From Conidiobolus incongruus B7586 (Eukaryota): a stretch of 39,029 nt of DNA. The notes below the pieces were generated by a model that was not told the origin of the DNA, did no database searches, and saw only the letters and a program-made list of their open reading frames with translations. The stretch spans positions 1 through 39,029 of the forward strand of contig JNEM01010206.1 of the NCBI GenBank assembly GCA_000697335.1, written 5' to 3'. Shown piece by piece: positions 4,067 to 29,132 of the stretch (within the stretch, counting starts at the first letter, position 1; every line of letters starts with the position of its first letter). A program made the translations under genes and the position numbers.

Positions 4067-5374
4067 TTACTATAGAATTGAAGAAATGGGAAATTTTTTA
4101 ATTTCTGATTTTTCAAACATATTATTAGTTTCAAATAAACAAATATATACAAAACAAATAAGAAAATAAATAGTTTTGAATTATATATATATAATAATTT
4201 TTTTTATAAAAAAATTAATTTTTTAAAATTAGTTATTTAATTTAATTATACTTAAACTAAATAGTAACCATCAAAAGTTTTTTATTTTAGTATTAGTAAA
4301 ACTTAACCACAAACACTTTAAAATTATTTAAAATTTACAAACAGCTTTTGGTAATAGAATATTATTTAAATTAACAATTTATTGCTAGGTAAATTATTTT
4401 AAAGCTAGGAAAAAAACTACCTAAAACCTATTAAAATCTAAAAGATTAATTTTAACTATTATTTTTTTAATTGTTAATAAAATAAAAAATTATATTGAAA
4501 AGCACTTTTTTATTTTAATTAAAAAACTATTAAAACATTTTAATATTAGTTACATAAGTATTTTATATATATTAAAGTTTAAATTAAAATTAATTAATAA
4601 AAATATAAAATAGATACTTTATAATTTAACTAAAACTTAAAAAAAACTAGAGTAGCTATTATTAAACAAAACTTACTAAGGTATAACTAGAAACTAAAGC
4701 TTTTATAATAAATTATTATAATTAATAAATCTTAAATTTTTTTGTATAATCTTTTATTAAAATATAAATTAAAATGTTAAATTAAGTTAAATCAACCCTT
4801 TTTATAAATTCCTTTAAATAAACACTTTATTAATAAGTGAATATTAATTGTAATAATAGATTATAATAACATATGCTATTTTTATTTAGTTCTTAAAAGA
4901 AAATTTATTAATAGTAAACTTTATATTTTTTTTTAAATAAAACTATTTTTAATTGGTATTTTTAATATAATTTAAAAAAACCTATTATTTTGTATAATAA
5001 TTATAAAATACATAAATCTAAAGTTATAAAAAACTTTCTAATTAAAAATAACTAGAAAAAACTACTACATCTAGTATATTCTTTAGATTATAACCTATAT
5101 AACTATAATTGTTTTAGGCAATTAAAGAACTTGTTTATAGGAAAGAAAATTTCTACAGGAAAATTTAATTGGTTTATAAAATATTAAATTTTAGTCTTTA
5201 ATAAAAAGAATTATTTTTTAGGTGTTAGATCTTTGTTAAAAGTATAGCAAAAAGTTATTAGAAATAAAAGAAATTATTAATTTTATATTATATATTTATT
5301 TTTACTTTTTATATATTAAAATCTTTATTTTTTTTCAATCACAAAAAATTCCCATTATTTAAATTACAAAGTAA
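4067..5374 (+). mobile_element. mariner (DD34D) DNA transposon, copy 1, heavily hypermutated and non-autonomous
   Basis: Flanked by TA at 4065-66 and 5375-76. Imperfect TIRs of about 32 bp (TTACTATAGAATTGAAGAAATGGGAAATTTTT versus reverse complement of the end, TTACTTTGTAATTTAAATAATGGGAATTTTTT). Colinear with 27815-29132. Start codon is ATA, with many stops and two 1-nt deletions in homopolymers. Confidence 0.93.
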
Positions 5375-6156
5375 TAATATTTCAAATAACTATCACAATA
5401 AATCTAAAATTATTAATTATCTTATAATTGTTATTTGTAAAATTAACTGATTATTTAAAATTTTCTTAAATAATATAAGGAAGTCCTAAAATTATCAAAG
5501 GTAGAAAATGCATTTGTATAAAATTTTTAACTTCAACTATTTTGATAATATATTTTAAAATAAATTCATTATTAGCTAAATTCATAGAATTATTATAAAA
5601 TTTGATTAATATTTTATAGTAGATTCCTTGTAATACTTCTGTAAGATAATTCATTTGAATTGGATTAATATTTAAAATTTTCAAAAATCGAAATTACATA
5701 ACTCTATATAATAAATTTTATATAACTACTATCCAAAATCATATTCCAGTAACTTGAAATTACCACAATCACTATAGGAGTAATCATCACAACTGAATAG
5801 TTTGATAGAAAAAGAGATTTTTAATAAAATAATTTACCAAAAAAGATACGTTAATATACATTGATATTGGAGAATGGTAAAGGGTTATATTATTTGAGAC
5901 TACTGAAAAAATTCTTTTATTAACTCCATATCATATATTTCCTCTATTTTTTATCTTTTTAGGAATAGATATGATGAAGATGAAAGTCAAATTTAATTAT
6001 ATATAGTCGCATTAATGCATGATTTAGGGATAAATTCCAAAACGATTTTCAATTTTATGGCAGCAAATTAAATATTTAAAACAATCTAAAGGATTGTACA
6101 ATTAATAAACTAAAATCAGAATTAGAAATATAGTAATAAATTATAATATTTTTTAT

Positions 6157-6579
6157 TCATTGAATAGGATTCAATCCAAAGGAGTTGCCACCAGTTACTG
6201 GGTTGGGGTTGCTATCAAATGATGTATGTGAATCATCGTCACCATTACCAACAAAAAATGGAATAAAATTGCTAAAGAAGCCACTAATTTCACCCAATGT
6301 TTGCATAAAAACTGAAGGGTTCAAATAATTACGGAACGGTCCAATATTCTTAGGGCCAATACTAGGAATAAGAGGTGGTAATGGTTTCTGGGTTGGTCTT
6401 TCATTGCTTTGTGGCTGAAATGGGTGATTATTACTTGAATTTGGTGACGGAGTTTGGACCTGAACAGGAGCATGTGGTAGAGCTTGATCATCTCCTTGAG
6501 GATTGAAAATCCCAAATAGAGGGCTTGCAGCTAAGACAGATGCAAAATAAATATGAGCAATATTTTTGATAGAAACCAT
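6157..6579 (-). CDS. small secreted Pro/Asn/Gln-rich hypothetical protein (140 aa)
   Basis: Intronless ORF. The N-terminus MVSIKNIAHIYFASVLAASP resembles a signal peptide. TATATAAAA lies on the minus strand about 70 nt upstream. Confidence 0.7.
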   Translation of the reverse strand: MVSIKNIAHIYFASVLAASPLFGIFNPQGDDQALPHAPVQVQTPSPNSSNNHPFQPQSNERPTQKPLPPLIPSIGPKNIGPFRNYLNPSVFMQTLGEISGFFSNFIPFFVGNGDDDSHTSFDSNPNPVTGGNSFGLNPIQ

Positions 6580-7839
6580 TTTCTAAACTCAAATATGAAT
6601 GGTAATGTTAAGATATACAATTTGTTGGTTTAAATAGATTTCATGACTGCTTTTATATATACAAATTATTAATTAAAAAACAAACAGCCGATATGATATT
6701 TTTATGCCCTTTAATAAACCTTGACAATCAATAATTAATTCATCTTCCGATATTTATAATTTGGTATTTTTTAATAACTAAAATCATAAGCACTTTTAAC
6801 GATCAATGAAATATATAGTACCATATCACAGTGTTAATTTGATCTTTAAGACAATGATAGACTAAAAAATTCACATGTGCATTCATTTCATTTAATATTT
6901 TATCATATATTAGAAAATAACAGATAAGTCACTATTTTCAACTCAATATTGAAAATATTGTGGTAATTTGTAAATTTGATAGATTACAAAAAATAATCTT
7001 ATAACCTCTTGCTTTATGCTTAATAATTTTACCTAGTTGTAATGATTCTATCATAAACATTTAATTATGATAATGATAATATTAACAACTCTATTCCACT
7101 CTAATCAATTTGAAAATATACTTTATGACAGAATGATATTAAAATATATTTTTTTGAATACTATTAATAATTATCTAATAAACAGATGCTAATAAAAATA
7201 ATTTAATAAATTTCAAGTAATTTGAAAACTGTCAAATTAAAAAAAGTTAGATAAAAATGTATAGGAATAAATTTCTTTTTTAAGTAATGATCATTTCACT
7301 TCCATAATAATTGCATGTATGTAGATTATATCCCTCTGATTATTACGATAATCGATGCATATTGTATTTAACTAATTTTGACTATATAAATTTTGAAATA
7401 TATTGTCATTGTTAAAGATATAACCTGACAGTATAGACGTATTTTGCTTTTTTTGATCTTCAATAGTTTCATACAGCATAGTATTCAGTTATTCAGTTAT
7501 TGAGCTCTTTTATTGACTTTGACAATATAGAAATATCATCAATGGTTGACAAAGGTGAGCGTTATTTCAATTACAATGTTAAATTAATTGCTAAAAATTT
7601 TCTAGCTTATGTATTAGACTTGTATTAATTATGTGCATTATATAATTTTCATTGATGTAATCAATAACTAGATATTTTTGGTATTCGATACCTATAATAT
7701 AAGTAAAAAATTTACTATATAGTTTATTTTTCAAGTTTTCAGTATAGATTTTCATCTCTAACTAAATAAACACTTATCAATTTTTGAATTGACTAAATAG
7801 GTTTTTCTGGCATATAATTCATAAATAAATGTTATATAT

Positions 7840-8173
7840 TGCAAGGCTTCTGGAAAGTAGTCTTGCGATAAAGATCACGTGAGCTCGATGAAACGGGCCA
7901 AAGAAGGCTAACTAGATACTTTAGAGGAGTTTTATTAAAATAGCAAGATCTAGGGCTTGGCCCTGATCGAAGTGATCCCCCAGCAAATATCTGTCCAGTG
8001 ACTATTTTATAGTGTGGTTGATCCTTGGCCAATGTGTTGAGGCTCCAGCTTCTGCTATAGTCTGGAATTTTCCATTGTGCAAGGGTTGTTCCTGATATTT
8101 GTGAGTGGATTACATCTGGAATCTTGACGGACGGTTAAAATTGAAAGGCGAGCGGACCTCCCGATCCGCGACA
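7840..8173 (-). mobile_element. solo LTR (334 bp), probably Ty3/gypsy-like
   Basis: GC-rich island bounded by TG...CA (minus strand starts TGTCGCG) and flanked by ATAT at 7836-39 and 8174-77. On the minus strand TATAAAA (8005-11) precedes AATAAA (7931-36). Same architecture as 35464-35799. Confidence 0.75.
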
Positions 8174-9097: not shown

Positions 9098-9122
9098 AAT
9101 ATATATATATATATATATATAT
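9098..9122. repeat. (AT)n microsatellite
   Basis: Perfect AT dinucleotide run. Confidence 0.8.
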
Positions 9123-10091
9123 TATAAATTTCAATCAAAATTTAACTCAACAAACGATCAAATAATGAAAAATTAAATCATAACCAATTCTATAATTACA
9201 ACATAATAACTGTTTATGACGTAATGATTTATATATAAAAACTAATTTAATATATTTTTTCTATAATTTTATATATTTAATATTGATATTTTCATTCCAA
9301 AAAATTAAAATTATTTTTATTGGTTATTATTCTTAATATTAATTTAATATTAAAATTACCAATATAATAATAGTAAATTCATTGATATTAATATTATTTA
9401 TAAAATAATAGTCATTTAAATTTATTTTAAGAATATTAAAGACATTATATACTCAAAAATTTAAAAATTTATCAATATTGTTATTCTAAATTAATTTTCA
9501 GTTAATATTAATTAATACTAGATGAAAATATATTTAAATGGATTATAACCTTAAAAATAGAATATAATTTTCAATATTGGTTGAATAACAAAGGTATTAC
9601 CAATGATATTTAATTGAATATAATTATCTTTTATTACAAAATCACTTATTAAAGTGTACTATTTTAATCTCGGCATTAAATTTTTATATCTTTTTCTTTT
9701 ACTTTATACCTATTAAATGCTATTGTAATATTTCGGATGAAACCATCATTAACACCTATATTTTCTATAAATATATATCAGCTATTTACATATTAATATA
9801 TTTTTTCAAAGTTATTAATGTTTAATATTGTTAAATATTTAATAATTCATTTTTATAGTTAAAATTAATATATTATTAAACAAAGATAAAATGATTTGAT
9901 TTTAAATTAAATAAAAATAAGACTAATTTTTAATAAAAAAGAATAGATATCATTATCAACTTAATAATAATAATAAAGTAGAAATATTAATAGTAGATGA
10001 TTAAGAACAACAGATGATTATTTAATTTTTTGCTATTCGATAATGATATATATATACGCATGCTGAATTGAGATGGTGAAATCAGCCAGTC

Positions 10092-11252
10092 TTAAATGGC
10101 TAAATAATGTGTGAATTTTTCGCTATCCTTATGCACTAACATTTCATTGCGCTTGTATTCGTTCAGTTCGCGTTTGATGTCTAAAGTATTGAGCATGTTT
10201 TGTTCTAAGTCGACTCCCATCCTGCGGTCATACTCTTCGTCACAGTAGGTTTCAAATATGACTACAAATTCGTTAAATCTGAAATGCTTCCCGTTAGTAT
10301 ACTTTTTGGAGCGTCCAACTTTGCTTAGTGTTCTAGTCTTAGATTTTCTCTTCTCTTTCTTGGGTGTAGTGTCATCCATTGAGGGTGTAGTTGGTCTTGT
10401 CTTGAGGATGCCCTTGCGAGGTGCATCTTGTGCTTCCATGGACACAATTTTACCCTTTTCATCCACCATGTACAGGCTCCTCGCATTGCCTACTGGTGGT
10501 ATCGAGTGAGATTTTGGACGTTGCTTATCCTCATCAGTATCTGTTTCACCTGAACCGGATGTAGCAGAGCAGATGGAGCCCTTACGTCCCCTCTGCCTAG
10601 GAATTTGGTCAATCCTCGAATCTTCAGAACTCTCCAACATCATTTCACCAGCTTTATTCTGATAATTGATGACTTCTTGAACCATAGAAGGAGACACAGA
10701 AAGCAAAGAGCTTTCATTCAGTGGGAGAGCGGGATCCGAAGAATCCATTTCATCCAATTTCCCAGCTTCTCTATCAAGATTTTCAAGAGTTGAAAGTGTA
10801 TTAAACTGGTCTTTCCACACAAATTTTAAAAATTTTAAAAACTTTCCCATTGGAGTGCTTGACTTCCTTGACAAACTCTTGCTCTCGAGCTTTTTATTTT
10901 TAAAATCTTCCAGAGATTGCTCGGTAGTCGCAGGATTACCGAGAGAGTACCTTCTATCGAATTTGGTCCCAGTCGGTATAATAGGTGAGATAGGCTCAGA
11001 TGGCATGGATTCTGATTTATGGATAGGTTCACCATTTAATTCTGGAACGGGTTCTTTTACGAGCGGCTTGTCAGAATCGACGATTTTAGGAAGCTGAATC
11101 TGGTTCTGCAGATCGATTTCGCCATGATCAAACAACTGTGTTGCCATTGAGAATCGCTTTCTTCTCTTTTCGAGCTCTTCGCTCGATTTAGGCCCTTCAG
11201 TTTTATATATTTTTCCAAAATTATCACTTCTAGCATCCAATAGTAGTGTCAT
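10092..11252 (-). CDS. PP1 regulatory/targeting protein, Bni4/Phactr/neurabin-type C-terminal domain (386 aa)
   Basis: Low-complexity N-terminus. GILK (SILK-type) motif and RVxF-like KHFRF, followed by ETYxxEEYDRR and IKRELNEYKRNEMLVHKDSEKFTHY, which match the Bni4/Phactr PP1-binding C-terminus. Confidence 0.8.
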   Translation of the reverse strand: MTLLLDARSDNFGKIYKTEGPKSSEELEKRRKRFSMATQLFDHGEIDLQNQIQLPKIVDSDKPLVKEPVPELNGEPIHKSESMPSEPISPIIPTGTKFDRRYSLGNPATTEQSLEDFKNKKLESKSLSRKSSTPMGKFLKFLKFVWKDQFNTLSTLENLDREAGKLDEMDSSDPALPLNESSLLSVSPSMVQEVINYQNKAGEMMLESSEDSRIDQIPRQRGRKGSICSATSGSGETDTDEDKQRPKSHSIPPVGNARSLYMVDEKGKIVSMEAQDAPRKGILKTRPTTPSMDDTTPKKEKRKSKTRTLSKVGRSKKYTNGKHFRFNEFVVIFETYCDEEYDRRMGVDLEQNMLNTLDIKRELNEYKRNEMLVHKDSEKFTHYLAI

Positions 11253-11640
11253 CTTTGCAATATTATCAATGATTAAACTATAGGATGAATTTGTTTATAA
11301 TGGATTAATAATTTTTTATATATCAATTTATCCTCCTCCAAAATTAAACTATGAATAGAATTTGAATATCGAAAATGCTCAGTATATAAAAATATATATG
11401 AGGTAAAATATAAAAAAATTAGGTATAACAGAGAAAAAAAATTATTAAAAATATTTTAGAAACTATGAAATATTTAAATAATGCCACCTATTTTGGATGA
11501 ACATACAAAGAATACAATTGCAAACTTGACTATTTGTATCAATTTCACCAATTCATCCAATTCAATTTGAAACCTTATTTTTTAGGTTAATTTTAATCTC
11601 TTTAATCCTCTCTTACTTAGTTCAATTCATTCAGTTTAAA

Positions 11641-11786: not shown

Positions 11787-12987
11787 CTCATATAGAAAAG
11801 GTCGTAAATATGTTTAAGACATAATTGCTGTCTAATCTGGGGTATAATATTACCAGAAAAATCAAGAAAATCTCATAATACTCCCAAGGTCTATCAAGTT
11901 TATTATTTAATTCAATTCAATTTTCAAAGATTAGTAATAATAGACAAATTTTCATTATATTTATGTAAATGAATAAAGCATTTCTTTGATATGCTATGTA
12001 AATGTTTGATTAGTAGATTATATTGTTAATGATCATCTTTTCATAATATTTATCGATAAAAATAGTCAAAATATTTTATATATTTATTGATTTAATACAA
12101 ATGTCAAGATAATTAAGTTGCTAGTTTTAAAACGGATAATATAAAATTTTATCTAAGGTTTTGAGATGATATCAACTCTACGTAACATATTGATCAATTA
12201 TTATATAATTTTAGTAGATTAATTGATTTGAAAAATGGTCATAACTAATTAAATTTTTAAATAGATAATTTATTTATTTACAGTATAGTTTTTGAATTTA
12301 CAAATGATTAAACAATTTGATTAAGTTATTTGTACAATCCCAGAATATTTTCCAATTATATTGTATTTTCTTTAATTTTGAAATTTGTTTTGTTTAAAAT
12401 ATTTCATTAACAAAGAATATATTAATGTTAACTTTATTTTATGATCAGTTGCTATTATTATGTTTATAAAAATTTTATGTACCCATTAATTCAATTCCTA
12501 ATACATTAGAATAAGCTATTAATGTTCGATACATTCAGTTCATTTTTAATAAACATTGTATTTATTTTAAATTAATATTTGTTCAAATTATTCAATATCA
12601 TTTATAGGTACTGATAAATTAGATTTATTTCATGAAGAATATAATAAGCAATTAACTTCAAAATTATATAATTTGTAATATTACTATGATCAACTTTTTA
12701 CAATGGTAATCATAATATTTGTTGTGTATTTCATATTTTATGACAGATTATTTCATACTATTTTAATATTTATCTTTTATATTATTAATTGTAATTTAAA
12801 GATACTATTTTTTAGTATATATTATATTTATCCAAATGAAAACAATTTAATAATGTACACATTGATTAAAAAAATTAAATATTGGAATTTTCAATCCCAT
12901 AATTTGAAATTAATGATTTAAAGGCATAAATTTTCAAAATTCCAAATCCTGAATCTAAAAATAAAAGATATATTGAATAAGTGTATA

Positions 12988-14195
12988 ATGAGTACACAAG
13001 GGTCACCACAAACACTCAATCACCACTGGAACACTGTCAATCTACCATATCCTACCAATAATACAAGCATATCACGAGCTCAACTGAATCGCCAATATGA
13101 ATTAAACATTCACAAATTTCCGGAACAAATGGAAGATTGGATAAATCCAGAAACCTTACAATTTCAACTAATTAAACAATGTTTAGTCAATTTACAAGCT
13201 AAAGATTACCGTGTCGAGCAATTGATAGCGAATAGAATCTATTATATGAATCGGAATCAACATCAAACAGGAAAATATTTTCAAAAATATCAACAGGTAA
13301 ATCAGCATAAATTCAATGTTAAAAATTACATTGATCGAATTGAGTTAGATTTTAAGAATTTTTAAAAAATTATATCGAATGGGGCTAGAAGAAGTTTGTA
13401 AAAAATTTCTAGCTTTATTTTATAATATTTCGAAGTAATTATTTCTTTTTATTCAATTAAATTCAAATATATTTATCAGTTTATATTAGTAAAAATCAGG
13501 TCAAAAAATTACCTCCTACTTGGACTCATATACCTAATTTAGATTGGTTGAAATTTGGTATTCAATACTTTACGGGAATTCATCAATTGTGTGCTAAGGG
13601 TTTGACATCGTGTGAACTGCTATTCAAGTAATTATATTATATTGTTCATTCCATCTGTACAATCCCTAATGAATTTTGAAGCTATTTAGTCCAATTAATC
13701 CAAACGCAAGAATATGTCCCACTTGCTGTAACTTTAATGAGCTTAATTTCTAGATTATTCACATATTTAAAATTAATCAAACACGATTCTAAAAAACTAA
13801 TATTATTATTAATCCATTGTCTTAAGATAACTAATGTAAGTATTTGATAATATAAATGATAATAAGTAGTGATTAACGTTTTGCTAGAAAGAGCACTTAT
13901 TAACTGAAGATTGGACATTAAAAGAATTTTTACCTAAAATTGATAAAAAGAGAAAATTAGTAGAATGTAAAGAGTAAGTTATTAATTTCAATATATATGT
14001 ATATATGTATACGTAAATATTTATAATCATCGACTTAATTAGAGATAATCCAAAAGGATTGGATAATAAGCTAAAAAAGAAGAAAAAGAAACCTTCAGTA
14101 TCCAAAATTAATTTAGATGATGATCTAGGAGGTAAAATAAATCATTCAATAACATTGACTAAACCAATTAAACGTTTTTATTAGAACCTGTGTAA
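12988..14195 (+). CDS. RMP1: NEPRO/RMP64 (yeast Rmp1)-like RNase MRP subunit, about 7 exons
   Basis: Hand-spliced through GT-AG introns (first 13297-13348; further donors near 13435, 13628, 13836, 13974, 14132) with the frame preserved. Motifs WNTVNLP, RIYYMNRNQHQTGKYFQKYQQILR, QEYVPLAVTLMSLISRL and C-terminal DDDLGEPV are characteristic of the NEPRO/DUF4477-Rmp1 family. Confidence 0.78.
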
Positions 14196-14390
14196 GTTAA
14201 AATAGAAATCAAAAGCAAAAAAATACCCTTAATTGCCAATGGAAATCTTATTGAAATGATTAATAAACACAAACATGAATACAAATACTATATTAATATC
14301 AAATTTTATATCTAATTCAATTTTCAAAATAAGACCAAATGTTCCAATATATTTAATGATAATAATAAAAATGAATCATGACAGGTTTAT

Positions 14391-17189
14391 TTAATTGAAG
14401 TTAAAAGGTTGATCAAATTTAGGGGGATTAGCAAGTGATTGTAATTCAGCAAAGAGGGCAAACACACGAGGATCAACGTCTTTGGTGAAAGTGATGTTTT
14501 CTAAAGTTACCATGAAAGGCGAATAAATTTCGAGATAATCACGACCAAATTCTCTGAAGCGACCAGCCATAATTCTGAAGAGTGTGTCTTCGGCGTGATT
14601 ACGGCCCTGGCTGTCCAAGTGAACTAAATATTTGGATAAGATAGAGCAGAAGCCTTGGAATACAAGGAAAATGTTATTTTTCAATTCTTGTCTAGCAGAT
14701 GTTAAGTTAGCTTGAAGTGAAGAAATTTCGTCAGCATAAGGGTCAAAATCATCGGTTTGCATAGAGTCCTCGGGTGTCAAACGTTTGATCTGAGTTTCAA
14801 TATCTAAGATCCAATATCTCAGTTTGTTAATTGTGTTTTGTAAAATCTCCCAAATGTGGGCGCGATGATAATGCTGCATAGCATTCTCACTGAATAGATA
14901 ATTGATGATATTTGCGGATGTAATAAGGTTATAGTTGGTAAATTTGTCGAGTTGTATACCCATCCATTGGGGAACAGGAGACCAAAATGATACAACGATT
15001 TGAACGAGATGATCTTTAGCGGCATCACTATCGACTAAAAATTTGAAAATGGCGGAATAACGTTCAATGACATTCAGCATATGACTGAAACTCTTACTAC
15101 CTTGAACGAGGAGCGTTTCGATAGCAATTTCACGGATAAGATCAGATGTCAACTCAGGATTGGCGCTAGCTTCATTAATACAATGCTTAATCATATTGAT
15201 ATCCGCCTTGGATTTGATGAAACCATCTAATTGCTGTTTGAGCTGAGCTTGAGGTGTATTTTCTTCAATATTTTTGAATTTATAGTTGGGTTCTGGGCTT
15301 AAATCACCAATTAAAGCTTGTAAAGGCTCAGGAATGGCTTCTTTAATTCTTTCATAATAAGCAAGACGAATGCATTTTTCTAAAGTTCCAGCAACGAAAA
15401 TTCGACGGAAATCGACAGGTTCTAGGTCCCAAACAGGGCCAAATGATTCAAAATGCCATTTATATTCAATGTGACTAAGGTAATGACTAAACCAATTGTA
15501 GAGACGGTTGATACATCCTATATCGAGATCAGAAATCTGTTCGTAAATACCGGGTACGGCATTCTTTAAGGCATATATAAAAGCAATAGGTGAACTCTTG
15601 ATTCCTTCAACGATTAAAACACCATAGTAAACAGGCTTGTGGCAAGGACTGGGTAATGTTAAAATTTTGTTAAAAATACATTCAATAATAATTTTTTCTA
15701 AGCTTAATAAACTTTGAGGTACAGAAATCTCACCAGCTTCTTGTTCTGGGTCTACTTCTTTAGCGGTATAGAAAGTTTCAGAGGGGAATGATGATGGGAT
15801 AGACAAAACATATTTAATGCATTCTCTACGATTATGTTCCATTAAATCAATGAGGTCGGATATGACATCTGAAATGATATAATAAGCAGGTGATTGGCAT
15901 TTGGTCAAATGTTCAGAGTAGCAAAAAAATATATTGGTAGGAGTGGGATAAGTAACAGATGAGTCGTGAGGAACGGGATTAAATTCAGGAACATCATGTT
16001 GAAGAGCAGATCCCAAAGTTGATTCAAATAAAGTATAGGGTTTGGGAAGAATTTGAGCATCCCAATTCTGTTCTTTCAATTTGAGCATTTGAGCCCAAAG
16101 CAATTCCAATTTGTCACTTGGAACTCCTGAGTATCCCTTTTGATGTACAGTTAAAACTTGTAATCTAGGATCTTGAAGCGCTTTACGAGCACTTATGTAT
16201 TTTTCAATAGATTCGAAAATTCTATTAAAATCATGAGGATTACGCTCACTCAAATCTCTAGCTGCCCAAGGCAAAGAAGCCAACACCAACTCAACCATGC
16301 AATCAATGCGATCCTAAGAATTTGATTAGTACATTTAGAGTAATAAATAATGAATTAAATAATACTTTAATTGGGTTTTCTTCATTTAATACAGATAATA
16401 GGTTATTATAAATAGCAATAAGATTAGAAGATAAAATCATATTTGAGTTAACTAACTCAGCGAAGAATCGAAGCTAAAAATTTGGTTAATTAAATGATAA
16501 ATGCAAAATATAGAGTCTTTTTCTTACTAAAATTTTAGCCCTGCGCCAATCTCCAGTTTCTAAAGCGTGAGAAAAACCAGTAGATGCTCTATTGACAATT
16601 GCACCACCCAAATCATAATTGCGAGCGGTTAATAAGCCGACCAAAGTACCATAGATGGAGGATTTATGGGGTAATTCAGAGATACTAAATATTAAAATTA
16701 GTGTTATTGTATATTAAATGTATATTGTAACGTTTACCATTTTTCAAAAATGTCCAAAATCAAATCTGAATGTTTACTGTAATCTTTTTCTAAAATTTCT
16801 GCCAAAGTTTCTAAATTATTTTGCAAATTTTTTGATATCTATTGGAACTAAAATAAATAAAAAATAATTAACATATATAAGAGTTTATAGTTACATTATC
16901 GCCAACTCTAAGAATCAAATTTGAAAGACGGTGCTCGAAAGTATCTTCTTTAGGGGGTCCCTGATTATAGCCTCTATTTCTATTATTGTAGTGACCTCTG
17001 TGACGATCTCTACTATAGGGCTTATTATGATCTAATAGAAGAATTTAGTATTGAAAATACTGTGATAGTATAAATTAACATACGACCAGTTTTAAAACCT
17101 CTTGAAGCTTTATCTAAACCACATGAACAAGATTAGTAAAACATTATGTAATAGACTAATTAAAAATAAAATATACCATAATAAACCAT
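14391..17189 (-). CDS. STO1: nuclear cap-binding complex subunit 1 (CBP80/NCBP1/Sto1), multi-exon
   Basis: Exons splice to MVYYD...RLSNLILRVGD...ELPHKSSIYGTLVGLL. The large last exon contains ELVLASLPW, WFSHYLS, KCIRLAYYERIK and GSKSFSHMLNVIERY, typical of the CBP80 MIF4G-like domains. The first exons are tiny (13 and 30 nt), so the start is less certain. Confidence 0.93.
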
Positions 17190-18668: not shown

Positions 18669-21590
18669 TTATTCATCGTCGTCTTGAGTTTGTAAAGTAC
18701 GTTTCCTAGATTGGTTAACCTTAACAATTTGTTTATATTGTAGTCCTAATGGAGTCTTGAACACATCAGTATCGCGCATAAATGTTTTCTAATTGATATT
18801 GTTAATAAACAGGATAAAATGATACTATAAAGTAACTTACTAAGCTGTTCAAATTGCTAGGATTAAATCTAACATTCTCTCTCTTTTGGTTGACGAAATC
18901 TGAAGTCTCTTTAATCTTGGTGAGAAGGACTTGAACGAACCTTGGAGTATTGGGAGCGGTCTTCTTGGCGAAACGTTTCAACTAATATAAGCTCACGTTA
19001 AAAATCAAGCTTATATAATCAATGAAATATAATGACTTACGTATAAAGTAGTTGGTAAAACGATTTCGGGGAAAGCAATGGAAGTGGACAGACAGGAGAA
19101 GTAAGCCAAGAAACATTCGTTTACTAATCTAGAAAGTTCATCCTAATTAAAATTGAAATTAATATATTTCAGACTATTTAGAAAAAAATGAAAGCATACC
19201 TGATAAGGCTTAGTTCTTAACTGAGTCTTAGGAGCTTTGATAACTACATCGAAATTGAGAGGTTTTTCGGTAGAGGGCTTGGGCTTCTTTTGAAATTCAT
19301 TAGATTCTAAGATCTAATAGCAATTGCATTAAGAAAAAAAGAACATATTAAGTAATATAAAAAATACCTCAATTAAATATGGAGCAATAGGAATATAGAT
19401 CTTGGTAGATTGCATAATGGGAATCAAAGCCTTGATACAGTGGAACTTCAAGGGGAAATACTTGGGACTGGGAATTAAACTCAAAGTTCCGAGAGTAACT
19501 TGAACGAAAGGATAAATCAAAGGTTTAAGAGGAGATTCGCCATTTTCTTGCTCTAATTTAACATTACAATAGCTGCACAATACTTGAGACCAAAAGTAAA
19601 TGCTATGGATGAATTGAAAGTTGTATACTTGTTGGTAAGAGTCTTTGGTTTTGTTAGTAAGAGATGCTCTTAAGTGCATGGCAAGACGCCTGATAAATTG
19701 AAAGGCATATTGGTAACTGACAGCGAAATCTTGACCAAATAATTCGACACCACAATTGCGCATCATTTCAATTTGAGGCAAATTGAAGGCAGTAATGTTT
19801 TTGGTATTTCTGATATAAGACATATATACACCCTAAATAATTTACCATTAAAGATACAAATCAGACAATATGAAATAATAGTTACCTTGAGAGCAAGTTC
19901 TAAGAACTCTTTGGAAGTTCTTGATAAATTCTTGAGAGTAATGAAAGCCAAAAGTCTAACTTTATCATCTTGTGCAGAACCGAATAATTTTAATAAAGTT
20001 TTGACTAAATCTCTAGATAATTTAGGGAAACTGGCGAAATAAACCAAGATGGATTCGAAACGATCAAGCATAAAGGTCAACATAGTGGGCTCAGTTAACT
20101 GTTGAAGCATATGGAGACAGCTTGAGAGGTAAGATTTGGCTAACAAATGAATAGCTTTCCAGTTTTGGTAAGTATTAGGTAATTTGTTGTTATTGGGTTT
20201 AAATTTGAGAGTTTCGTTAAAGAAAGCAGGTACAAGTTTCATTGTCTTGACCATGAGTTGATTGAAAACTAAAAATATAGATGAGAATTTGAAATAATAT
20301 TTTTATCACAAATTTTGATTACCTTTATCGTTGTTAATCTTGTATTTGGATGGCTGAGCTTCTTCACCTTCTTTCTTTTGATCATGAAGATGAGCACCAA
20401 ATTTGAAAGCACTTAACAACTGGTTACAAGCTTTCAAAGATTTTTTCTAAAACAAAGGGTCAGATTTGATTGGAAATCCTATCAATTTAAGGACTATACC
20501 TCCGTAATTTGTTGTTCCCAACCTGAAATCAATTTCAAAGAAACCAAAACAGTTTTATCGGACTCCTAAGTTTGAAAGTCATTTAAAGTCATTTAATATC
20601 CAAGAAAATTCTTACATTAGCATCGTCTTTATCATCGTTATCATCAGCTTCTTCATGGTCGGCAGCTTCATCTTCGTCCTCTTCTTCATCTTGAACATCA
20701 AAATCTAATAAAGCTTTGTCGTTTTCTTGAAGAAATTTGTAGAATTCAGGATCTTTCTCCTTTAAAGCAGCCATATCTTGTTTCATGGATTCAACAGCAC
20801 CATCGACATCTTCTTCATCATTGATATCCTCTTCTTCTTCTTCTTCCTCATCTTCCTCATCTTCTTCCCCATCTTCTCCCTCATCTTCGTCCTCATCTTC
20901 TTCTTCATCATTTTCAGCTTCGTTTTCATCATCACTTATATCCATGGCAGTATCTTCATTATTTTCAATTTCGTTATCATCATCGCCTTCTTCGTCACTA
21001 ACATCCATATCATTATTTTCTTCTTCGTCACTTGATAATTCAACCTCATCTAAATATATGGTTAGAAAATGTAAATAAAAGTCATGAATTATTTAAATTT
21101 ACCCTGAAGTACTTCTAAACCTTCAAAATCATCGTCTAATTTAGATCCTTGACCTTTAGAATTTTTCTATATTAATTTAATTAATAATTACTTGTGAACA
21201 TGTATTTAACCTAATTACTGTATGTTTCAATAGATTAATTTCATTTTCTCCTCTATATTAAAATAAAAATATTAGATATTGAATGACAAATTACAAATAA
21301 AAATATAGTTTTACTCTTCTTCAGAAGATTCTTCAGTTTCTTGAACTCTAGATTTATTCTTTAATTTTTCTTTTTCAGCAGCTAAAAAGAAATTGAAATA
21401 TGAATAAACCGTAATAAAAATAATAATAAAAATAAAAACCTTTTTGTTTTAACTTTTCCTTCTTTAATTTTTCCTTTTCCTTCTTTAAATTTTTGTCCTT
21501 TATAGCTTTATTTTTTCTACGTTGCTTTAAATGACTTTGTAAATGTTTTTTATTGAATTTTTTAGTTCTCTTGTCGGCTCCTTTTGACAT
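18669..21590 (-). CDS. NOC2: nucleolar complex protein 2 (Noc2), multi-exon
   Basis: N-terminal KRTKKFNKKHL, acidic tract, LKEKDPEFYKFLQENDKALLDF, YQYAFQFIRRLAMHLR, PLIYPFVQVTLG, IPSPKYFPLKFH and SIAFPE. Many short GT-AG introns; stop codon at 18669-71. Confidence 0.95.
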
Positions 21591-22180
21591 TATGATTTAT
21601 TGAACCAAATTAAAATCTATATTGAAGATTTTATATTATTTCTATTTAATTCAAAATTTATCAAATTGTCCATTTTAGATTTTTATGTCATACTTTTACA
21701 CTCTCCAAATTATGGGATTATCAATTTTTCCAAATATAGTGATTAACTGTTAACTTTGGATTAAAAATATCTTAAATAATACTCAGTATATCATGCCAAA
21801 TTTCATTAAATAATAATTCTTATAATTGATTGTAATTTTAATAAAATATTTTAAAGCAATTTTAAATATATAAATATTTTTTTTAATTTCGGAGTCAATT
21901 ATTTAATCATAATTTGAATATTTAAAATTTCACGTTGAATGGAAAGATAACTAAAACGATAACAACTAAAATAATGTATTTAATTCAGTAATAAAACACA
22001 TTAAATAATTGACTCAGTAATGAAAGGTAAAATATAAATACTAAAATACCATTTGCTAAATAAATGAATTTATTAAAATCTAGATAATTTGATTTTTTTA
22101 GAATTAATCAAATAATACAAGTTAAAATTAAACCTTAAATCAGCTATTGATTGTTGGTTTATATTCCCTTAAAATTTAAA

Positions 22181-22201
22181 TATATATATATATATATATA
22201 T
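22181..22201. repeat. (TA)n microsatellite
   Basis: Perfect TA run downstream of FCP1. Confidence 0.8.
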
Positions 22202-22300
22202 TTGTTAGATGATAGATTGAATGAGTATCGATAAATGAACGGTAAATATACATTGATGTTTAAATTTTGGGGTAAGGGATCAAAAATAAATATATAAACT

Positions 22301-24879
22301 TTAGTCTGTACCTGAATCTTGGATACCCCGTTGAGTATTGAGATCATTTTGATATCCGTCATTTGGAGATACATCATTTTCGAAATCCATATCATTGATA
22401 GGTGCGTCAGAGTAATCTGAGTCAAGGACCGCCAATCCTTCTTGGAAAAGATCTTTGAAATCTGATTCTATGTGTGCTTCCGTATCTTGTTCAAAGTTCT
22501 CATTTTCATTAGAAGGTTGATAATTAGGTGATTCAGAAGGAGAGCTGACTCCAGAAGGGGTTTCTTCATCACTAGCAAATTGGATTTCAGGCGTCTTTGA
22601 TACTAGATTATCGTCATAAGGAGAGTCAATGTTAAATGAGGAAGATGGTGACCCATTCTCATAATCAGATACATCGCTCTCTTCTTGTGATATTCTATTA
22701 ATAATCTTTTTCCTTAAAAATTGATTGGGTTGGCTTGAATCTCTACGTCTTCTCCTCTTGGTACGACTAGGTGGTCTCAAAGATGGCGATCTTGGTTGCT
22801 TCAAATTTGCGCTATTGGGATGAAGATGCGTGTTCTCATCTTGATTAGAAGGTGATGCATAATCGCTTTGTGTGTCGCTTAAATCGTCATCAGTTTCAAT
22901 ATCAGTAAAGGATTCGCCAAATAATTCTTTAATCTCGGGGTCGTCAAGTGATGGCATCTCATTTTGCCACTTTTCAAGATAATCGTGGAATTCATCTTCG
23001 TTAATATTGGGCTCGACATCCGTATTTTCTGTCTCTGCAGTTTCTGAAGGATCGACTATAATGGGGATATTGCTGGTGTTACTATATTGAAGCATGTCAA
23101 CATCTGGAATTGGATAATCAGATTCATTTTTCTTTTCCCATTGAGTTACAGAATCATATAACCATTTAGAATGTACAACTTTGATGTTTGGCATCCTAAG
23201 TGCTTGGTTCACTTTATGGGTTTGTTTTGTAGCAACTAAATGGGTAGTTTTACTAGAAATACTAGTTGAGCATTTAGCACCAAAACTTTCTGCCCATATC
23301 CATGCATCTTGCCTAGAAGAATATTAATATGAGAAAAAACATAATTAATAGTATATCTTACTTGGTAGGATCAGCATCAATAGGAATGATACCACTAAAA
23401 GTGATATAAACCCCCTTTAGGACCTCAGATTTCAACTTGGGTAATAAAAAGGGAACAGTGGGCACTACGTTATCTATTTTTTGAAGTTCACGGTTGTCTT
23501 GGTACTTGTAAAACATCTCATGCAGACGCTTGAGTTGTTTAAGTATTAACAATAACTCTTTGTCATCTTCAGTAAGTTGAGCAACATGACCATTTTGAAT
23601 AGTATTGGTAATAGTAGGTTTAGTGGCTTGAGGTTGTTTGAGGTCATCATTAGTTTGACTAGTTACTTCGCCATTTACTCCTTTATTTTCGCTAGATCTG
23701 TTCTGATTATTCGAATCGGAATTAGACTCTTCATTATTTTTAGTCTCAGCAGCGGTAGCGGCATTAGGTACAATAGATGTCGGGTCATTTTTGTTAATTT
23801 CAGGTAAGTTATTAGCATTAATATCCCCAGTTCCTGGGAAAAATTCAAAGGGCACTACTCTAATCAAATTTGGTGACCATTCCCAGACATCTGGACGATC
23901 ATCAATAGCGACTACCATGGACTGGTCAGTTGGAAAGAGCCTACTTATTGATTTTGTGGAACTTAAATTCTCGTCTCTGGTAATTACACGTTCTCTAAAA
24001 TATTTATTCTGAGGGTCAATAATCTTGACAACTTCCAAAGCATAACTTCTAACTCCCATGGTATAAATATGAAATTCATAGAGTGGGTCTAATTCTTCTA
24101 GAAACTTCTTAAGAAAAGGACGAGGTTTTATATAATATATATTTGGAGAGTCGTTAAGCGTAAATTTTCCAATATCGTGAGTAGCAGGATAATTAATATT
24201 TTCAGGATCTGACATCCACTCACCAATTTTAGTATTTAATGAAGCATGAATAATTGTTTGGTCAAGATCGATAATTAAAGTTAATTTACGAGCTTTTAGC
24301 AATCTATTAGCATTTTCTAAATCTAACATTTCTGCATTCTATGTAATATAATCAAATTAACAATTTCAAATTTATTGAATTATAATTAACATTACCTTTT
24401 TTGTGGTAGTTATATTATTTGTAGAATGATCAAATTTAATGGAAGCTCTCTCTAATTCATATTTATTATGAGATAAGTTAAGATCTTTACCACAATCTAC
24501 ACAGAGGCCTGCAAATAATGTTTCATGTGTACACTCAACTTCAATTTTGGCGACAAATTCACTAATAAAAAAAACTGAATATTAATGGTTGAAATAAAAT
24601 TGAGAATATTTTAATAATGGAATCGGATAGTGCCACTTACCTCACTGTAATTTCCTCACCTTCTTCAACCAAGATCGATTCCAAAATGCCTTCAAATTGA
24701 GCAGTTAAAAAATGTCTCAAATATTCGGGTTCAGATTCTTCATTTCCATGTCTAGGGTTTAGAGATTCATACAATAATAGATTCGTGTTGTACTTGACTT
24801 CAGAACCAGGTTTTGCCAAAACCCTAATGATACGAGCAGGGAGATGCTCGGCGGGGATACGAACTTCTTGAAATCCCAT
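22301..24879 (-). CDS. FCP1: RNA polymerase II CTD phosphatase Fcp1; exons about 24879-24641, 24561-24396, 24338-23362, 23312-22301
   Basis: N-terminal lipoyl-like fold, CTHETLFAGLCVDCGKDL, catalytic DLDQT, TMGVRSYA, IDDRPDVW, BRCT domain (THLVA...KWLYDSVTQW) and an acidic C-terminus. Confidence 0.95.
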
Positions 24880-25856
24880 TGAAAAAACTAGGACTTAATA
24901 CTAAAGCTTTGGACTAATAATATAGTATAATATAGGGTATTTTTGATTAACTGCTATTTGTTAATTATAAAATATTGAATGAATTTAATAATTTTAAATT
25001 CACAAATAAAATTTTAATAACAAAAATTGCATTCTAAATCTCCATTTATGCTTTCATTGACTGTTATAAATTCAAATTTTGCTAAAAATCCATTGATGAC
25101 ATAACATTCAAAACTCTATTATCCAATCAAACCTCGATTATTAAGTCGTTCCATTTTTAGACCAAATTGAGTAATATTGCAACTTTAGCACATTTTATCC
25201 TCAAGTTGTTTTAAACTATTTTGACTTTAAAAATTTTTATGATTAAATACAAAATCTTTTATACAATTCGTTTATTTCATAAATCATATATATTTTCGTT
25301 TTTTTAATATTATTCAAACGAATATATAGCTATATACTAAAATTTATATGATAATTTATACAAAGTTAAATGATCGGACTAGTTTTCATTTCACCTTCTG
25401 AACAAATCTTTGATCAATTGAAAATTTATTGTTTTAATACAATATTAGTATTTTGTAATATATTTTGAATAATATATATTTCGTTAACTGGTATAGAAAA
25501 TTGTTGATATTTAAACTATATTTTTGATTTATATCAAATTATAAAATATTTACCTACTTGAAAACTTGAACAATTATGCACTTACACAGACTACATATCA
25601 TCTTCCAAGTATCATTAACAGTTTTATTTTATATTATCTAAGCTGAATAATATAAAAAATTCTATATCTATTTTAAAAAATTTAATAAATGATAATTTCA
25701 AACATAACATAGTTCTGAAGATTTTAATTTTTATTCAATTTATTTATTTTATACATTGAAATCAAATTAATAGTTTAATTTATATCATCCAAAATATAAT
25801 TGTAAAAAAAATAATTTATTTTTTTAAACTTGATTGTTAATTAAGTATGTGTTGCT

Positions 25857-27199
25857 CTATAATGGAATTTCTTCAACTTTAGGCTTTTCTTCATATTCAC
25901 CTAATAATTAAATAAAATTAATATCAAATTGAAATATATTGGATTTAATTTACCTTTTTCAGTTGAAGATCTATTAGATTTCAAAGCAGCCTCTATTTCC
26001 CCCAATGTTTTCAATTCAGGAGGATTACCTCTGATACTGATGGTACTTTCCTCTGACTCAGATAGGTCATAGGCTTGCTTTCTCGTCTCTTCCCATTTCC
26101 TTGTGCTGGTAAATTTATGCTGTTCATAAATATCCTTCTCCTTGACAATATTTAACATAACAAACTCTACTGCCCATTGTGATAAATCCAGCATTGCCAT
26201 ACCCGCAACAATATTAAGAATCAAGTTAATGATATTAAATGCCCCAATACTTCCTGTTTGAATGAACATTATCCTAATACCATGCGTATTGACAACTGTA
26301 AAATGATTCATTGGTGAGGGATCTGTTGATAGAAGATTATCATATACAGACTCAACATATTTGAAATCGGCACCAGGCGCTTCTTGAACAGTTATTTCAT
26401 AAGTCACCTCCCAAGGACGATACCAAGGATTCTCGTAATTAATTAAGGCCAAAAGTACTATTCCTTCATATCTCTTAGGCTTGGATCTCTCATTTTCTAC
26501 TTCATCTAGATCAATTCCTCCTGCTTCTAATATTTGATCTACAGAGAATACATAATCTTTATCTTTTCCTTTAATAGGAAACTTTACAATTGGCTTATCT
26601 TTGGAATCTAGAATCTCCCCTCTCATTGACCTTGAAGTCAAGACTTCTCCAGTTGTCGGACTCATGATGGAATGATCAATCAGTATTGTGTAATATTCAG
26701 GATAGCTAGCGTAAAATGCAATAGCTCTATCATAATCGTTAGAATTATGCTCATAGATATCGTAAATACAATTGCGATCAGAAGAGATTAAACCATGTTG
26801 TGAGCTTTGACATCCAGGCTTCAAATCGTTATATAGAGTTAAATTTACTCTAGTAGGGACAAGGATAGAATGCTCAGTTGATCCATAAAATTCAGCTATA
26901 TATCTGCAGCCCAATGCTGGAGAATAATCCTTAGCACAATAATCCAAGTTTTTGCTCGATTCAAGCTTTTCAAAATCGGGTACACGCACAGACACTCGAA
27001 CGCTACCACCCGATGGCTTATCAAGATCCATGTAGCCTCTCTTATACATCAATTCATATAGCCCAATATATAATAGTGCCAAAATGGTCAAAAGAGTGTT
27101 GAATAAACCCAATCTAGGATCTTTGATCTTCACGACAGCTTGGGTCTCAAAAGTTGTGGTATTGTCTACAATCCAATTGATAAACTTTCTGAGAACCAT
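25857..27199 (-). CDS. P2X receptor-like (ATP-gated cation channel family) protein; one intron at 25953-25901
   Basis: FETQAVVKIKDPRLG N-terminal motif, TM1 followed by KRGY, GSVRVS strand, HGIRIMFIQTGSIGAFN before TM2, and YEQHK (YxxxK motif). The last exon reads GEYEEKPKVEEIPL*. Confidence 0.9.
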
Positions 27200-27814
27200 T
27201 ATATTTTTATAATATTCTTGATATATGTGTAGTTGACATCAATTCACTAACTACAACAATTATTCATCAAATGATATATTTATACTCTAGAGAGGATATT
27301 AAATATAACTTTTCAAACAGTATCAACAACTTCATACTTCTTGTAAGTCCTGATTCAGAAATATTTATCCTATGAATCAAAAGTACTATTTCAAAGACTT
27401 CAATCACTTTGATGATTTTGAAATTTGGCATTCTTTGAAAGATACTCCTTCGGAATTATTTCAAATATATTTCAAAAAACGGGTCATCTACCACAGTCTA
27501 AATACCACAATAGTGGTTCCTATCTCTTACTATGATAAGTTTATTTTATTAATAATCTTTGCAGCTCTATTACCTAATATAATATCGGAAGAATTTCACA
27601 TATTTTAAATTTACAATAAAGGAATTTGGTTCTAGGAATGCAATAAACTTTAGAGTAATATTTTAACCAATTAAATTCTGAATGAGAGCAACAAAGTAAA
27701 GTTTCAATTTTATAAAACTTAATATAATATCCTAAAAATATAACTTAACAGTATAACTATGAATAAAAAGTAATTTATATTAAATAAAATATTTGATGGA
27801 AATATTTTATCTTA

Positions 27815-29132
27815 TTACTATAGAATTGAAGAAATGGGAAATTTTTTAATTTCTGATTTTTCAAACATATTATTAGTTTCAAATAAGCAAATATATACAA
27901 AACAAATAGGAAAATAAATAGTTTTGAATTATATATATATATATATATAATAATTTTTTTGATTAAAAAATGAATTTTTTAAAATTAGTTGTTTAATTTA
28001 ATCATGTTTAAACTAAATAGTAACTATCAAAAGTTTTTTATTTTAGTATCAGTAAAACTTAACCACAAACCCTCTAAAATCATTTAAAATTTACAAACAG
28101 CTTTTGGTAATGAAGCATTATCTAAATTAACAATTTATTGCTAGGTAAATTACTTTAAGGTTAAGAGAGAAACTACCTAAAACTTGTTAAAATCTAGAAG
28201 ATTAATTTTAACTATTACTTTTTTAATTATTAATAAAGTAAAAAATTATATTGAAAAACACCTTTTTATTTTAGTTAAAGAATTATCAAAACACTTTAAT
28301 ATTAGTTACACAAGTATTTTATATATATTAAAGTTTAAATTAAAATTAATTAATAAAAATATAAAATAGGTACCTTATAATTTAACTAAAGCTTAAAAAA
28401 AAGCTAGAGTAACTATTGCTAAACAAAACTTACTAAGGTATAACCAGAAACCAAAGCTTTTATAGTGAATTATTATAATTAATGAATCTTAAATTCCTTT
28501 GTATAATCTTTTGTTAAAATATAAATCAAGGTGTTAGATTAAACTAAATCAACCCCCTCTACAAATTCCTTTAAATAAACACTTTATTGATAAGCAAATG
28601 TTAATTATAGTAATAAATTATAATAGCATATGCTATTCTTATTTAGTTCCTAAAGGAAAATCTATTAATAGTAAACTTTATATTTCTTTTTTAAATAAAA
28701 CTATTTCTAATTAGTATTCTTAATATAATTTAAGAAAACCTATTATTTTACATGATAATTACAAAATACATAAATCTAAAGTTGTAAAAAACTTTCTAAT
28801 TAAAAATAACTGGAAAAAACTACCACATCTAGTATATTCCTTAGATTATAACCTATGTGATTATAATTGTTTTGGGCAATTAAAAAACCAGCTTACAAGA
28901 AAGAAAATTTCTACAGGAAAATTTAATTGGTTTGTAAAACATCAAATTTCAGTCTTTAATAAAAAGAACTGTTTTTTAGGTGTTAGATCTTTGCTAAAAG
29001 TATAGCAAAAAGTTATTAGAAATAAAAGAAATTATTAATTTTATATTATATATTTATTTTTACTTTGTATATATTAAAATGTTTATTTTTTTTCAATCAC
29101 AAAAAATTCCCATTATTTAAATTACAAAGTAA
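27815..29132 (+). mobile_element. mariner (DD34D) DNA transposon, copy 2, hypermutated
   Basis: TA at 27813-14 and 29133-34; same TIRs as copy 1; colinear with 4067-5374. Confidence 0.95.
28004..29038 (+). pseudogene. mariner transposase pseudogene (345 codons, frame intact, 12 internal stops)
   Basis: In one frame: FGNEALS..TIYC*V (HTH region), *VPYNLT (WVPHEL motif), IIINES*I (IVTGDEKW), LHDN, LPHLVYSLDYNLCDY (YSPDLAPSDY) and V*QKVI. Exactly 34 residues lie between the second and third catalytic Asp. Confidence 0.92.

What the first reader, a model, noticed from the sequence alone, without database searches (positions are those of the whole stretch)
4067..29132. RIP-like C-to-T / G-to-A hypermutation of a duplicated transposon in an apparently early-diverging fungus
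Seen: aligning the two mariner copies by hand over the 1035-bp ORF gives about 95 transitions and 2 transversions. Copy 1 has the A/T allele at roughly three quarters of the sites and copy 2 at the rest, so both were hit independently on both strands. Copy 2 keeps its frame but conserved Trp codons are TAG/TAA and the first catalytic Asp is AAT. I see no CpG in either copy; AAGTGA versus AAGCAA reconstructs an ancestral CpG resolved two different ways. Neighbouring single-copy genes keep CpG. Known: this is the signature of RIP, characterised in Ascomycota (RID/DIM-2 dependent) with RIP-like patterns in some Basidiomycota. Inferred: the host looks non-Dikarya, so this could be an ancient or independently evolved repeat-mutating genome defence. 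I cannot check whether it has been reported for this taxon.
Basis: partly seen in the sequence, partly recalled or inferred. Interest (0 to 1): 0.9.

Follow-up and report, generated by a model that had tools for sequence, protein, structure and literature searches.

The report
RIP-like transposon hypermutation in Conidiobolus fungus
Two dead copies of a jumping gene in an early-diverging Conidiobolus fungus differ almost only by C-to-T changes, at CA and CT steps as well as CG, while the DNA beside them shows no such scar; this likely reflects a methylation-linked transposon-mutating defence in a genus whose one surveyed species was scored as having none.

Summary
Observation confirmed. Two mariner copies (4067-5374, 27815-29132) differ by 95 transitions and 2 transversions over the 1035-bp ORF; neither holds a CpG. 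The host is a Conidiobolus (Entomophthorales; CBP80 90% identical to C. coronatus), not an ascomycete. Direction is C:G to T:A, by distant transposases (31 of 46 differences at conserved columns) and by the family majority in reads (at least about 150 insertions). Targets are CpA, CpT and CpG; CpC is avoided (conserved Trp/Pro/Gly codons go CC>CT>TT, never TC). CpG decay alone and plain AT drift do not explain this; equally AT-rich neighbouring DNA is unscarred. Against classical RIP: no one-strand tracts, element ends spared, the family multiplied anyway, and no RID was shown. Best reading (0.5): repeat-restricted mutagenesis coupled to non-CpG cytosine methylation, like Dim2 in Zymoseptoria; true premeiotic RIP 0.25. 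Enzyme, methylation and timing are untested. RIP was already suggested for other Entomophthorales from dinucleotide indices, but a 2025 survey confined RIP-like signatures to Ascomycota and scored C. coronatus 'no_rip'. New variant of a known kind, resting on one family in one sample.

The parts
4067..5374 (+). Mariner copy 1 (dead), between TA dinucleotides at 4065-4066 and 5375-5376; 13.6% GC, no CpG; 80 private C:G>T:A changes; transposase remnant about 4248-5280 with two one-base deletions
27815..29132 (+). Mariner copy 2 (dead), between TA dinucleotides at 27813-27814 and 29133-29134; 18.6% GC, no CpG; 19 private C:G>T:A changes
   Evidence: family junctions pile up at 27812/27813 and 29134
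28004..29038 (+). Transposase ORF of copy 2, 345 codons in frame, 12 internal stops; weak DDE_3 and Transposase_1 Pfam hits below cut-off; 22-28% identical to 35 aligned mariner-type transposases
27815..27990 (+). 5' end of copy 2 with imperfect terminal inverted repeat; largely spared (2 of 22 G/C sites differ between copies)
28996..29132 (+). 3' end of copy 2 with imperfect terminal inverted repeat; 0 of 15 G/C sites differ between copies
4..120 (-). End fragment of a third, more diverged relative of the element, cut by the window start (82% identical; 12 transitions, 8 transversions against copy 2)
14391..16313 (-). CBP80 (MIF4G-like) exon used to place the host and as a single-copy control

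Best explanation
The two mariner copies have lost cytosines to C-to-T change on both strands at CpA, CpT and CpG but rarely CpC, inside the elements only, and the likely cause is a cytosine methyltransferase with non-CpG activity (DIM-2-like) that marks repeated DNA and whose marks are likely turned into mutations step by step over many cell generations. Shown: the transition excess, its direction, its context, its confinement, the lack of selection on the ORF, and that CC decays by way of CT to TT. Inferred: (1) copies are recognised as repeats and packaged as silent chromatin; (2) a methyltransferase acts on the element body and less on the outer 140-180 bp; (3) modified cytosines become T much faster than background mutation, by enzyme-assisted deamination or failed repair; (4) each hit in CC creates a new CpT target, so rounds accumulate until the ORF is dead. 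Whether this happens in mitosis, in zygospore formation or both cannot be told from the sequence.
For: 95 transitions to 2 transversions in the ORF; 65 missense, 7 stop and 23 silent, with no codon-position bias (p 0.26). Direction: 31 of 46 differences at conserved columns are undone by A>G/T>C, against 6 and 7 for matched transversion controls and 0 for the forward change; in 26 of 38 listed family rows most of the family has G/C where copy 2 has A/T. Context: CpA 40/83, CpT 51/127, CpC 5/42 (p 9e-5), CpG none left; at conserved Trp/Pro/Gly codons copy 2 shows CT 12, TT 7, TC 0, CC 5 and copy 1 CT 11, TT 10, TC 0, CC 3 (3 other each). Confinement: composite RIP index +0.68 and +0.42 in the copies, at most -0.08 in all 323 overlapping windows outside, -0.29 or lower in the 31 with GC of 20% or less, negative in the four 400-bp flanks. 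Interleaved C>T and G>A (runs z -0.2 and 0.44) and spared ends (4/33 against 95/224, p 0.0009) fit gradual, chromatin-bound mutation. Precedent: Dim2 drives mitotic C>T in Zymoseptoria repeats (PMC8016269 passages); DIM-2 methylates all CpN with CpT preference and occurs in Phycomyces (PMC13297926 passages); Dim-2 is said to exist in early-diverging fungi (PMC7862722 passages).
Against: No methyltransferase of this organism was seen and no methylation data exist here; the host proteome could not be searched. The Zymoseptoria process is over 98% CpA and spares CpG, unlike this spectrum. 5mC is described as scarce in Zoopagomycota (PMC11258239 passages). Copy loads are very unequal (80 against 19, p 4e-10), which fits episodic bursts as well as age differences. 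In 5 of 38 family rows the majority has A/T where copy 2 has G/C and 3 are near half. A 155-bp, 73% repeat pair in the window shows 8 transitions and 42 transversions, and the third fragment 12 and 8, so not all repeated DNA here carries the signature. Only one family in one sample was examined.
Confidence: 0.5

Rival explanations
1. True RIP: duplicates are detected by pairing around the sexual stage and mutated in bursts by a RID-like or convergent enzyme; several rounds have overlaid the two strands.
For: Transition/transversion ratio of 47 in the ORF; CpA+CpT is the RIP spectrum of Magnaporthe, Botrytis and Sclerotinia, tied there to RID (PMC4352252 passages); unequal loads 80/19; C. coronatus has 0 repeat matches of 1 kb or more at 95-100% identity but 555 at 80-95% (PMC12543289 supplement row; assembly collapse could also give this); index-based RIP of 24.2% in Zoophthora radicans (PMC11105155).
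Against: One round of Neurospora RIP gives one-strand clusters in 91.9% of cases (PMC7296669 passages); here even the 19 private changes of copy 2 mix 13 G>A and 6 C>T without runs. The family reached at least about 150 insertions. RID/Masc1 is reported for Pezizomycotina and a few other Dikarya only (PMC5751038 passages); the two-domain candidates in Entomophthorales are 12-14% identical to RID and their authors warn against calling them homologues.
Confidence: 0.25
2. A cytidine deaminase or RNA-guided process hits the transcribed body of the element without needing 5mC.
For: The mutated zone (about 27991-28995) roughly matches the ORF and spares both ends; there is a 5' preference too (ApC 27/101 against 72/154, p 0.002).
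Against: Both strands are hit equally in copy 1 (42 and 38), which transcription-linked deamination would not predict (own knowledge); no such enzyme was looked at.
Confidence: 0.1
3. Passive decay: spontaneous deamination of methylated cytosines (mainly CpG) with ordinary repair, no special mutator.
For: CpG is wholly gone; some apparent CpA sites may be old CpG sites hit in both copies; TE methylation in CpG is known in early-diverging fungi (PMC11258239 passages).
Against: CpT (51/127) cannot come from CpG, and TGG>TAG>TAA and CCA>CTA>TTA involve no CpG. 99 of 257 G/C sites differ against 7 transversions in about 1310 columns, roughly 70-fold per site, well above the roughly tenfold CpG effect recalled for vertebrates (own knowledge).
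Confidence: 0.1
4. General AT-biased mutation in a very AT-rich genome acting on GC-richer incoming DNA.
For: The copies (14-19% GC) sit near the local intergenic GC level.
Against: Only 2 transversions in the ORF; CBP80 differences from C. coronatus are 25 transitions (13 and 12 each way) to 26 transversions (Fisher p 1e-10 against the element's amino-acid-changing sites); equally AT-rich windows keep CpG and CpA. The CBP80 control is weak: protein-level and under selection.
Confidence: 0.05

Closest known systems
Dim2-dependent mitotic C-to-T mutation of repeats in Zymoseptoria tritici (PMC8016269)
   Same: C>T almost only, confined to transposon DNA, non-CpG context, no need for one-strand bursts
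   Different: Zymoseptoria: over 98% at CpA, CpG spared, enzyme and mitotic timing shown. Here: CpA about equal to CpT, CpG gone, CpC avoided, enzyme and timing unknown, Zoopagomycota host
RIP of Neurospora crassa and other Pezizomycotina (RID/DIM-2); CpA+CpT variant of Magnaporthe, Botrytis, Sclerotinia (PMC4352252, PMC7296669)
   Same: Extreme transition excess, C:G>T:A on duplicated DNA, premature stops at Trp/Gln codons, positive composite index, CpA+CpT targets
   Different: No one-strand tracts seen, ends spared, CpG also removed, large family expansion, no RID shown, host outside Dikarya
Index-based RIP in Zoophthora radicans, Entomophaga maimaiga, Entomophthora muscae, Massospora cicadina (PMC11105155)
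   Same: Same order of fungi, positive composite RIP index
   Different: That work used dinucleotide indices, with stated caveats, and left Conidiobolus and Neoconidiobolus out of the RIP panel; here the evidence is aligned copies with direction and context
CpG-type C-to-T decay of transposons in Basidiomycota (Microbotryum, rusts; PMC4352252)
   Same: Loss of CpG in transposons
   Different: Most changes here are outside CpG
Tc1/mariner transposons (mariner-type DDE transposase)
   Same: About 1.3 kb, TA target duplication, terminal inverted repeats, single 345-codon ORF with remnants of the motifs conserved in the alignment
   Different: No intact relative above 39% identity among the 150 best hits; inverted repeats imperfect

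Membership tests
RIP (strict sense) | C:G>T:A transitions in great excess over other changes | tested here: met
   95/2 in ORF, direction by outgroup and family majority
RIP (strict sense) | Confined to duplicated DNA | tested here: met
   Index positive only in the two copies, negative in 323 of 323 other windows and 4 of 4 flanks; genome-wide copy status known only for the flanks of copy 2; a short 73% repeat pair lacks the signature
RIP (strict sense) | Non-CpG dinucleotide preference (CpA, or CpA+CpT) | tested here: met
   CpA 40/83, CpT 51/127, CpC 5/42; CC>CT>TT path; CpG also lost
RIP (strict sense) | One-strand mutation clusters per round | tested here: inconclusive
   No runs in either copy; several overlaid rounds would erase them
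RIP (strict sense) | RID/Masc1 methyltransferase homologue required | not testable with these tools
   No genome held; literature reports RID only in Dikarya
RIP (strict sense) | Occurs before meiosis, triggered by pairing of duplicates | not testable with these tools
   Needs crosses or parent-progeny sequencing
Dim2-type methylation-coupled mutagenesis | DIM-2-like gene present and non-CpG 5mC on repeats | not testable with these tools
   No proteome or methylome; papers read do not list Conidiobolus methyltransferases
Dim2-type methylation-coupled mutagenesis | CpA-specific mutation with CpG spared, as in Zymoseptoria | tested here: not met
   CpT hit about as often as CpA and no CpG left
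CpG-only methylation decay | Transitions concentrated at CpG | tested here: not met
   At least 56 of 99 transitions are at C before T or C
Tc1/mariner | TA target duplication, terminal inverted repeats, DDE transposase | tested here: met
   Pfam hits below curated cut-offs because of the damage

The most novel reading that the evidence does not exclude
Entomophthorales run a repeat-mutating genome defence of their own, without RID, with a CpA/CpT/CpG-but-not-CpC signature that spares transposon ends; repeat-induced mutation would then be either older than the Dikarya or independently evolved from a DIM-2-like enzyme, and would be missed by composition screens in AT-rich genomes.
Probability: 0.4. 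Interest if true: 0.8.

Novelty: new variant of a known kind. Interest (0 to 1): 0.62.

Why it matters
How far RIP-like defences reach beyond Ascomycota is disputed: one paper proposes RIP in Entomophthorales from indices with major caveats (PMC11105155), and a 1,239-genome screen finds signatures only in Ascomycota and scores C. coronatus as 'no_rip' (PMC12543289). Aligned copies with direction and context are harder evidence, and suggest why a k-mer screen could miss it: here ordinary non-coding DNA is already 80-85% AT. Conidiobolus grows in culture (own knowledge), so a methylome and mutation-accumulation lines would test directly whether a RID-free, methylation-coupled route to repeat mutagenesis exists in an early branch of fungi.

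Tried and rejected
No whole genome was held, so no genome-wide copy set or proteome search. The orthologous locus was not found in metagenome contigs (83 pattern matches, none confirmed), nor the element's subterminal motif (0). A word-based protein search with the broken transposase found nothing (0 of 1076 candidates); the exhaustive search found only distant transposases. No RNA holder listed. A full per-site frequency table for the family and read depth across the gene-rich interval were not obtained, so family-wide context rates and the single-copy status of most control windows stay open. P2X as second marker gave one 68% unnamed hit and one 28% hit, no taxon. Summed contig depth (27-69 in flanks, up to 405,000 inside, run X1) was not used as a copy number. 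Considered and left open: that both copies descend from an already mutated parent; 16 of 26 copy-2 changes are shared with copy 1, above the 37% (76 of 205) rate of copy 1 elsewhere but explicable by hot and cold contexts. Rejected: ascomycete host, assembly artefact, CpG-only decay, plain AT drift. No print report for Conidiobolus turned up in searches, which cover open-licence papers only.
Full report
Observation. A self-comparison of the window gives one long repeat pair, 4065-5379 and 27813-29137, 91.2% identical, and a shorter inverted fragment at 4-120. Each long copy is a 1.3-kb element between TA dinucleotides (4067-5374; 27815-29132) with imperfect terminal inverted repeats. Copy 2 holds a 345-codon frame at 28004-29038 with 12 internal stops. 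An exhaustive search returned 1284 proteins at E up to 0.001, the best 150 at 22-39% identity; 35 of these, picked by hand among near-full-length hits, align with it along its whole length and show the conserved motifs of mariner transposases (the family name is my recognition of the motifs, Pfam gave only sub-threshold DDE_3 and Transposase_1 hits). Over the ORF the copies differ by 95 transitions, 2 transversions and 2 one-base gaps; the A/T allele lies in copy 1 at 76 sites and in copy 2 at 19. Neither copy has a CpG (expected 4.2 and 7.9 at the window's ratio).

Host. The CBP80 exon is 90.3% identical (577 of 639) to a Conidiobolus coronatus protein; all other 14 hits are 27-34%. The host is therefore a Conidiobolus near but not identical to C. 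coronatus (Entomophthorales, Zoopagomycota). This rests on one named marker; a P2X-receptor gene gave no named hit. The 'ascomycete' refutation does not apply.

Family. Four runs of one sample, possibly the window's own source, hold the region. Laid on copy 2, each gave 20,000-26,000 short contigs; flanks have single-figure to two-figure depth, and in run X1 157 contigs leave the element's left end into unrelated flanks and 67 leave the right end, a lower bound as the tool did not count everything. Of 341 variable places in X1, 293 are transitions. Both junctions of copy 2 are bridged without differences.

Direction. (a) At 102 columns where half or more of the 35 distant transposases agree, copy 2 differs at 46; 31 of these are undone by A>G/T>C, 6 and 7 by two transversion controls, 0 by further G>A/C>T (some of the 31 may be natural substitutions). 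(b) The tool listed its 40 best-supported of 367 variant rows; I dropped 2 single-contig rows. In 26 of 38 the family majority (58-99%) has G/C where copy 2 has A/T; 5 go the other way (three at third codon positions and shared with copy 1, probably subfamily differences), 3 are near half, 4 are transversions. The rows are not a random sample. The changes ignore the protein: 65 missense, 7 stop, 23 silent, no codon-position bias.

Context. Taking G/C as ancestral where the copies differ, C is changed before A at 40 of 83 sites, before T at 51 of 127, before C at 5 of 42, and in the one recoverable CpG on both strands (CpC against CpA+CpT p 9e-5). ApC is also cooler (27 of 101, p 0.002). This reconstruction misses sites hit in both copies, so some CpA are old CpG, but CpT cannot be. 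An independent view comes from columns whose top residue is Trp, Pro or Gly (27 columns): the CC step on the C-bearing strand is CT in 12, TT in 7, TC in 0, intact in 5 for copy 2, and 11, 10, 0, 3 for copy 1, with 3 unclassifiable each. CC decays through CT, which shows CpC avoidance, CpT targeting and repeated hits. In the 26 family rows the next base is A in 13 and T in 13.

Confinement and controls. The composite RIP index is +0.68 and +0.42 for the copies and at most -0.08 in 323 overlapping 1.3-kb windows elsewhere; the 31 windows of equal AT-richness range -0.83 to -0.29 and keep 2-17 CpG; the four 400-bp flanks are negative, so no leakage is visible. Amino-acid differences of CBP80 from C. 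coronatus need 25 transitions (13 and 12 each way), 26 transversions and 11 multi-step changes, a weak control because it is protein-level and selected. A true neutral single-copy comparison was not available. Against generality: a 155-bp, 73% repeat pair has 8 transitions and 42 transversions, and the third fragment 12 and 8.

Features that separate mechanisms. C>T and G>A are interleaved in both copies (runs z -0.2, 0.44), whereas single rounds of Neurospora RIP give one-strand clusters in 91.9% of cases (PMC7296669 passages); overlaid rounds could hide this. The element ends are spared: 4 of 33 G/C sites outside the ORF against 95 of 224 inside (p 0.0009), and 2 of 32 against 89 of 178 for CpA/CpT sites with boundaries chosen after the fact. 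Loads are unequal, 80 against 19. The family multiplied to at least about 150 insertions, so the process kills copies after the fact rather than blocking spread.

Mechanism. I judge a methylation-coupled, repeat-restricted mutator most likely (0.5): a DIM-2-like enzyme marks element bodies in non-CpG as well as CpG context and the marks become mutations gradually. The model is Dim2 of Zymoseptoria, which gives mitotic C>T in repeats (PMC8016269 passages), though there at CpA only. Strict RIP is second (0.25): the CpA+CpT spectrum matches RID-bearing Magnaporthe, Botrytis and Sclerotinia (PMC4352252 passages). A deaminase (0.1), passive 5mC decay (0.1) and AT drift (0.05) follow. Every enzymatic step is inferred; no methyltransferase gene or methylation was seen.

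What is in print. PMC11105155 (passages; supplementary file 2 whole; supplement search) reports index-based RIP in four Entomophthorales, with caveats, and did not include Conidiobolus in that panel. PMC12543289 (abstract, sections 8 and 9, passages, supplement rows) finds signatures only in Ascomycota and lists C. coronatus as 'no_rip'; its gene presence data are on an outside archive that I could not see and may say whether C. coronatus has Dim2 or Rid1. PMC5751038 (passages; 2 of 4 supplement places) notes mariners in Conidiobolus and RID only in Dikarya. PMC11258239, PMC13297926, PMC7862722 and PMC9915587 were seen as passages. I recall subscription papers by Clutterbuck on CG-type hypermutation that touch some early-diverging fungi and by Bewick and colleagues on fungal methyltransferases; I saw neither, and they may bear on novelty. 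Searches found no alignment-based report for Conidiobolus. Earlier unchecked notes of this scan describe similar transposon scars in Endogonales with a different spectrum (CpT spared); I did not test them.

Verdict. Real, well beyond chance, in a non-Dikarya host, and not explained by CpG decay or AT drift. It works like RIP in outcome; membership of RIP proper is unproven and two features lean against it. New variant of a known kind; interest 0.62, held down by the prior suggestion for this order, the single family and sample, and the missing enzyme and methylation data.

Noticed in passing
window 25901-27238 (-): Long ORF with a P2X receptor (ATP-gated channel) Pfam hit, E 5e-17; only 2 relatives found in the word-based search (68% and 28%).
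   Followed up: partly
window 27815-27990 and 28996-29132: Element ends are nearly free of differences between the copies although they hold CpA/CpT sites; unexplained, may mark the edge of the methylated or paired domain.
   Followed up: partly
window 27865-27883 (table 5): Many contigs share the first 50-70 bases of the element and then join other parts or other sequence, with a depth peak at 27830-27895: likely internally deleted or related elements with the same end.
   Followed up: no
window 28609 and 28663: Both window copies share two third-position transversions held by only about a fifth of the family, so they belong to one minority subfamily.
   Followed up: partly
window 9335-9488 and 38621-38775: Short AT-rich 73% repeat pair, partly palindromic around 9261-9439, with transversion-dominated differences; possibly an old miniature element or chance likeness.
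   Followed up: partly
window 12922-37658: Housekeeping genes by Pfam: CBP80 (14391-16313), NOC2 (about 19329-21092), FCP1-type NIF+BRCT phosphatase (22301-24338), phosducin-like (34568-35020), ATP synthase OSCP (37239-37658), DUF3452 below cut-off (12922-13365); ORFs at 10092-11294, 32356-33135, 3028-3492 and 6157-6582 had no Pfam hit.
   Followed up: no
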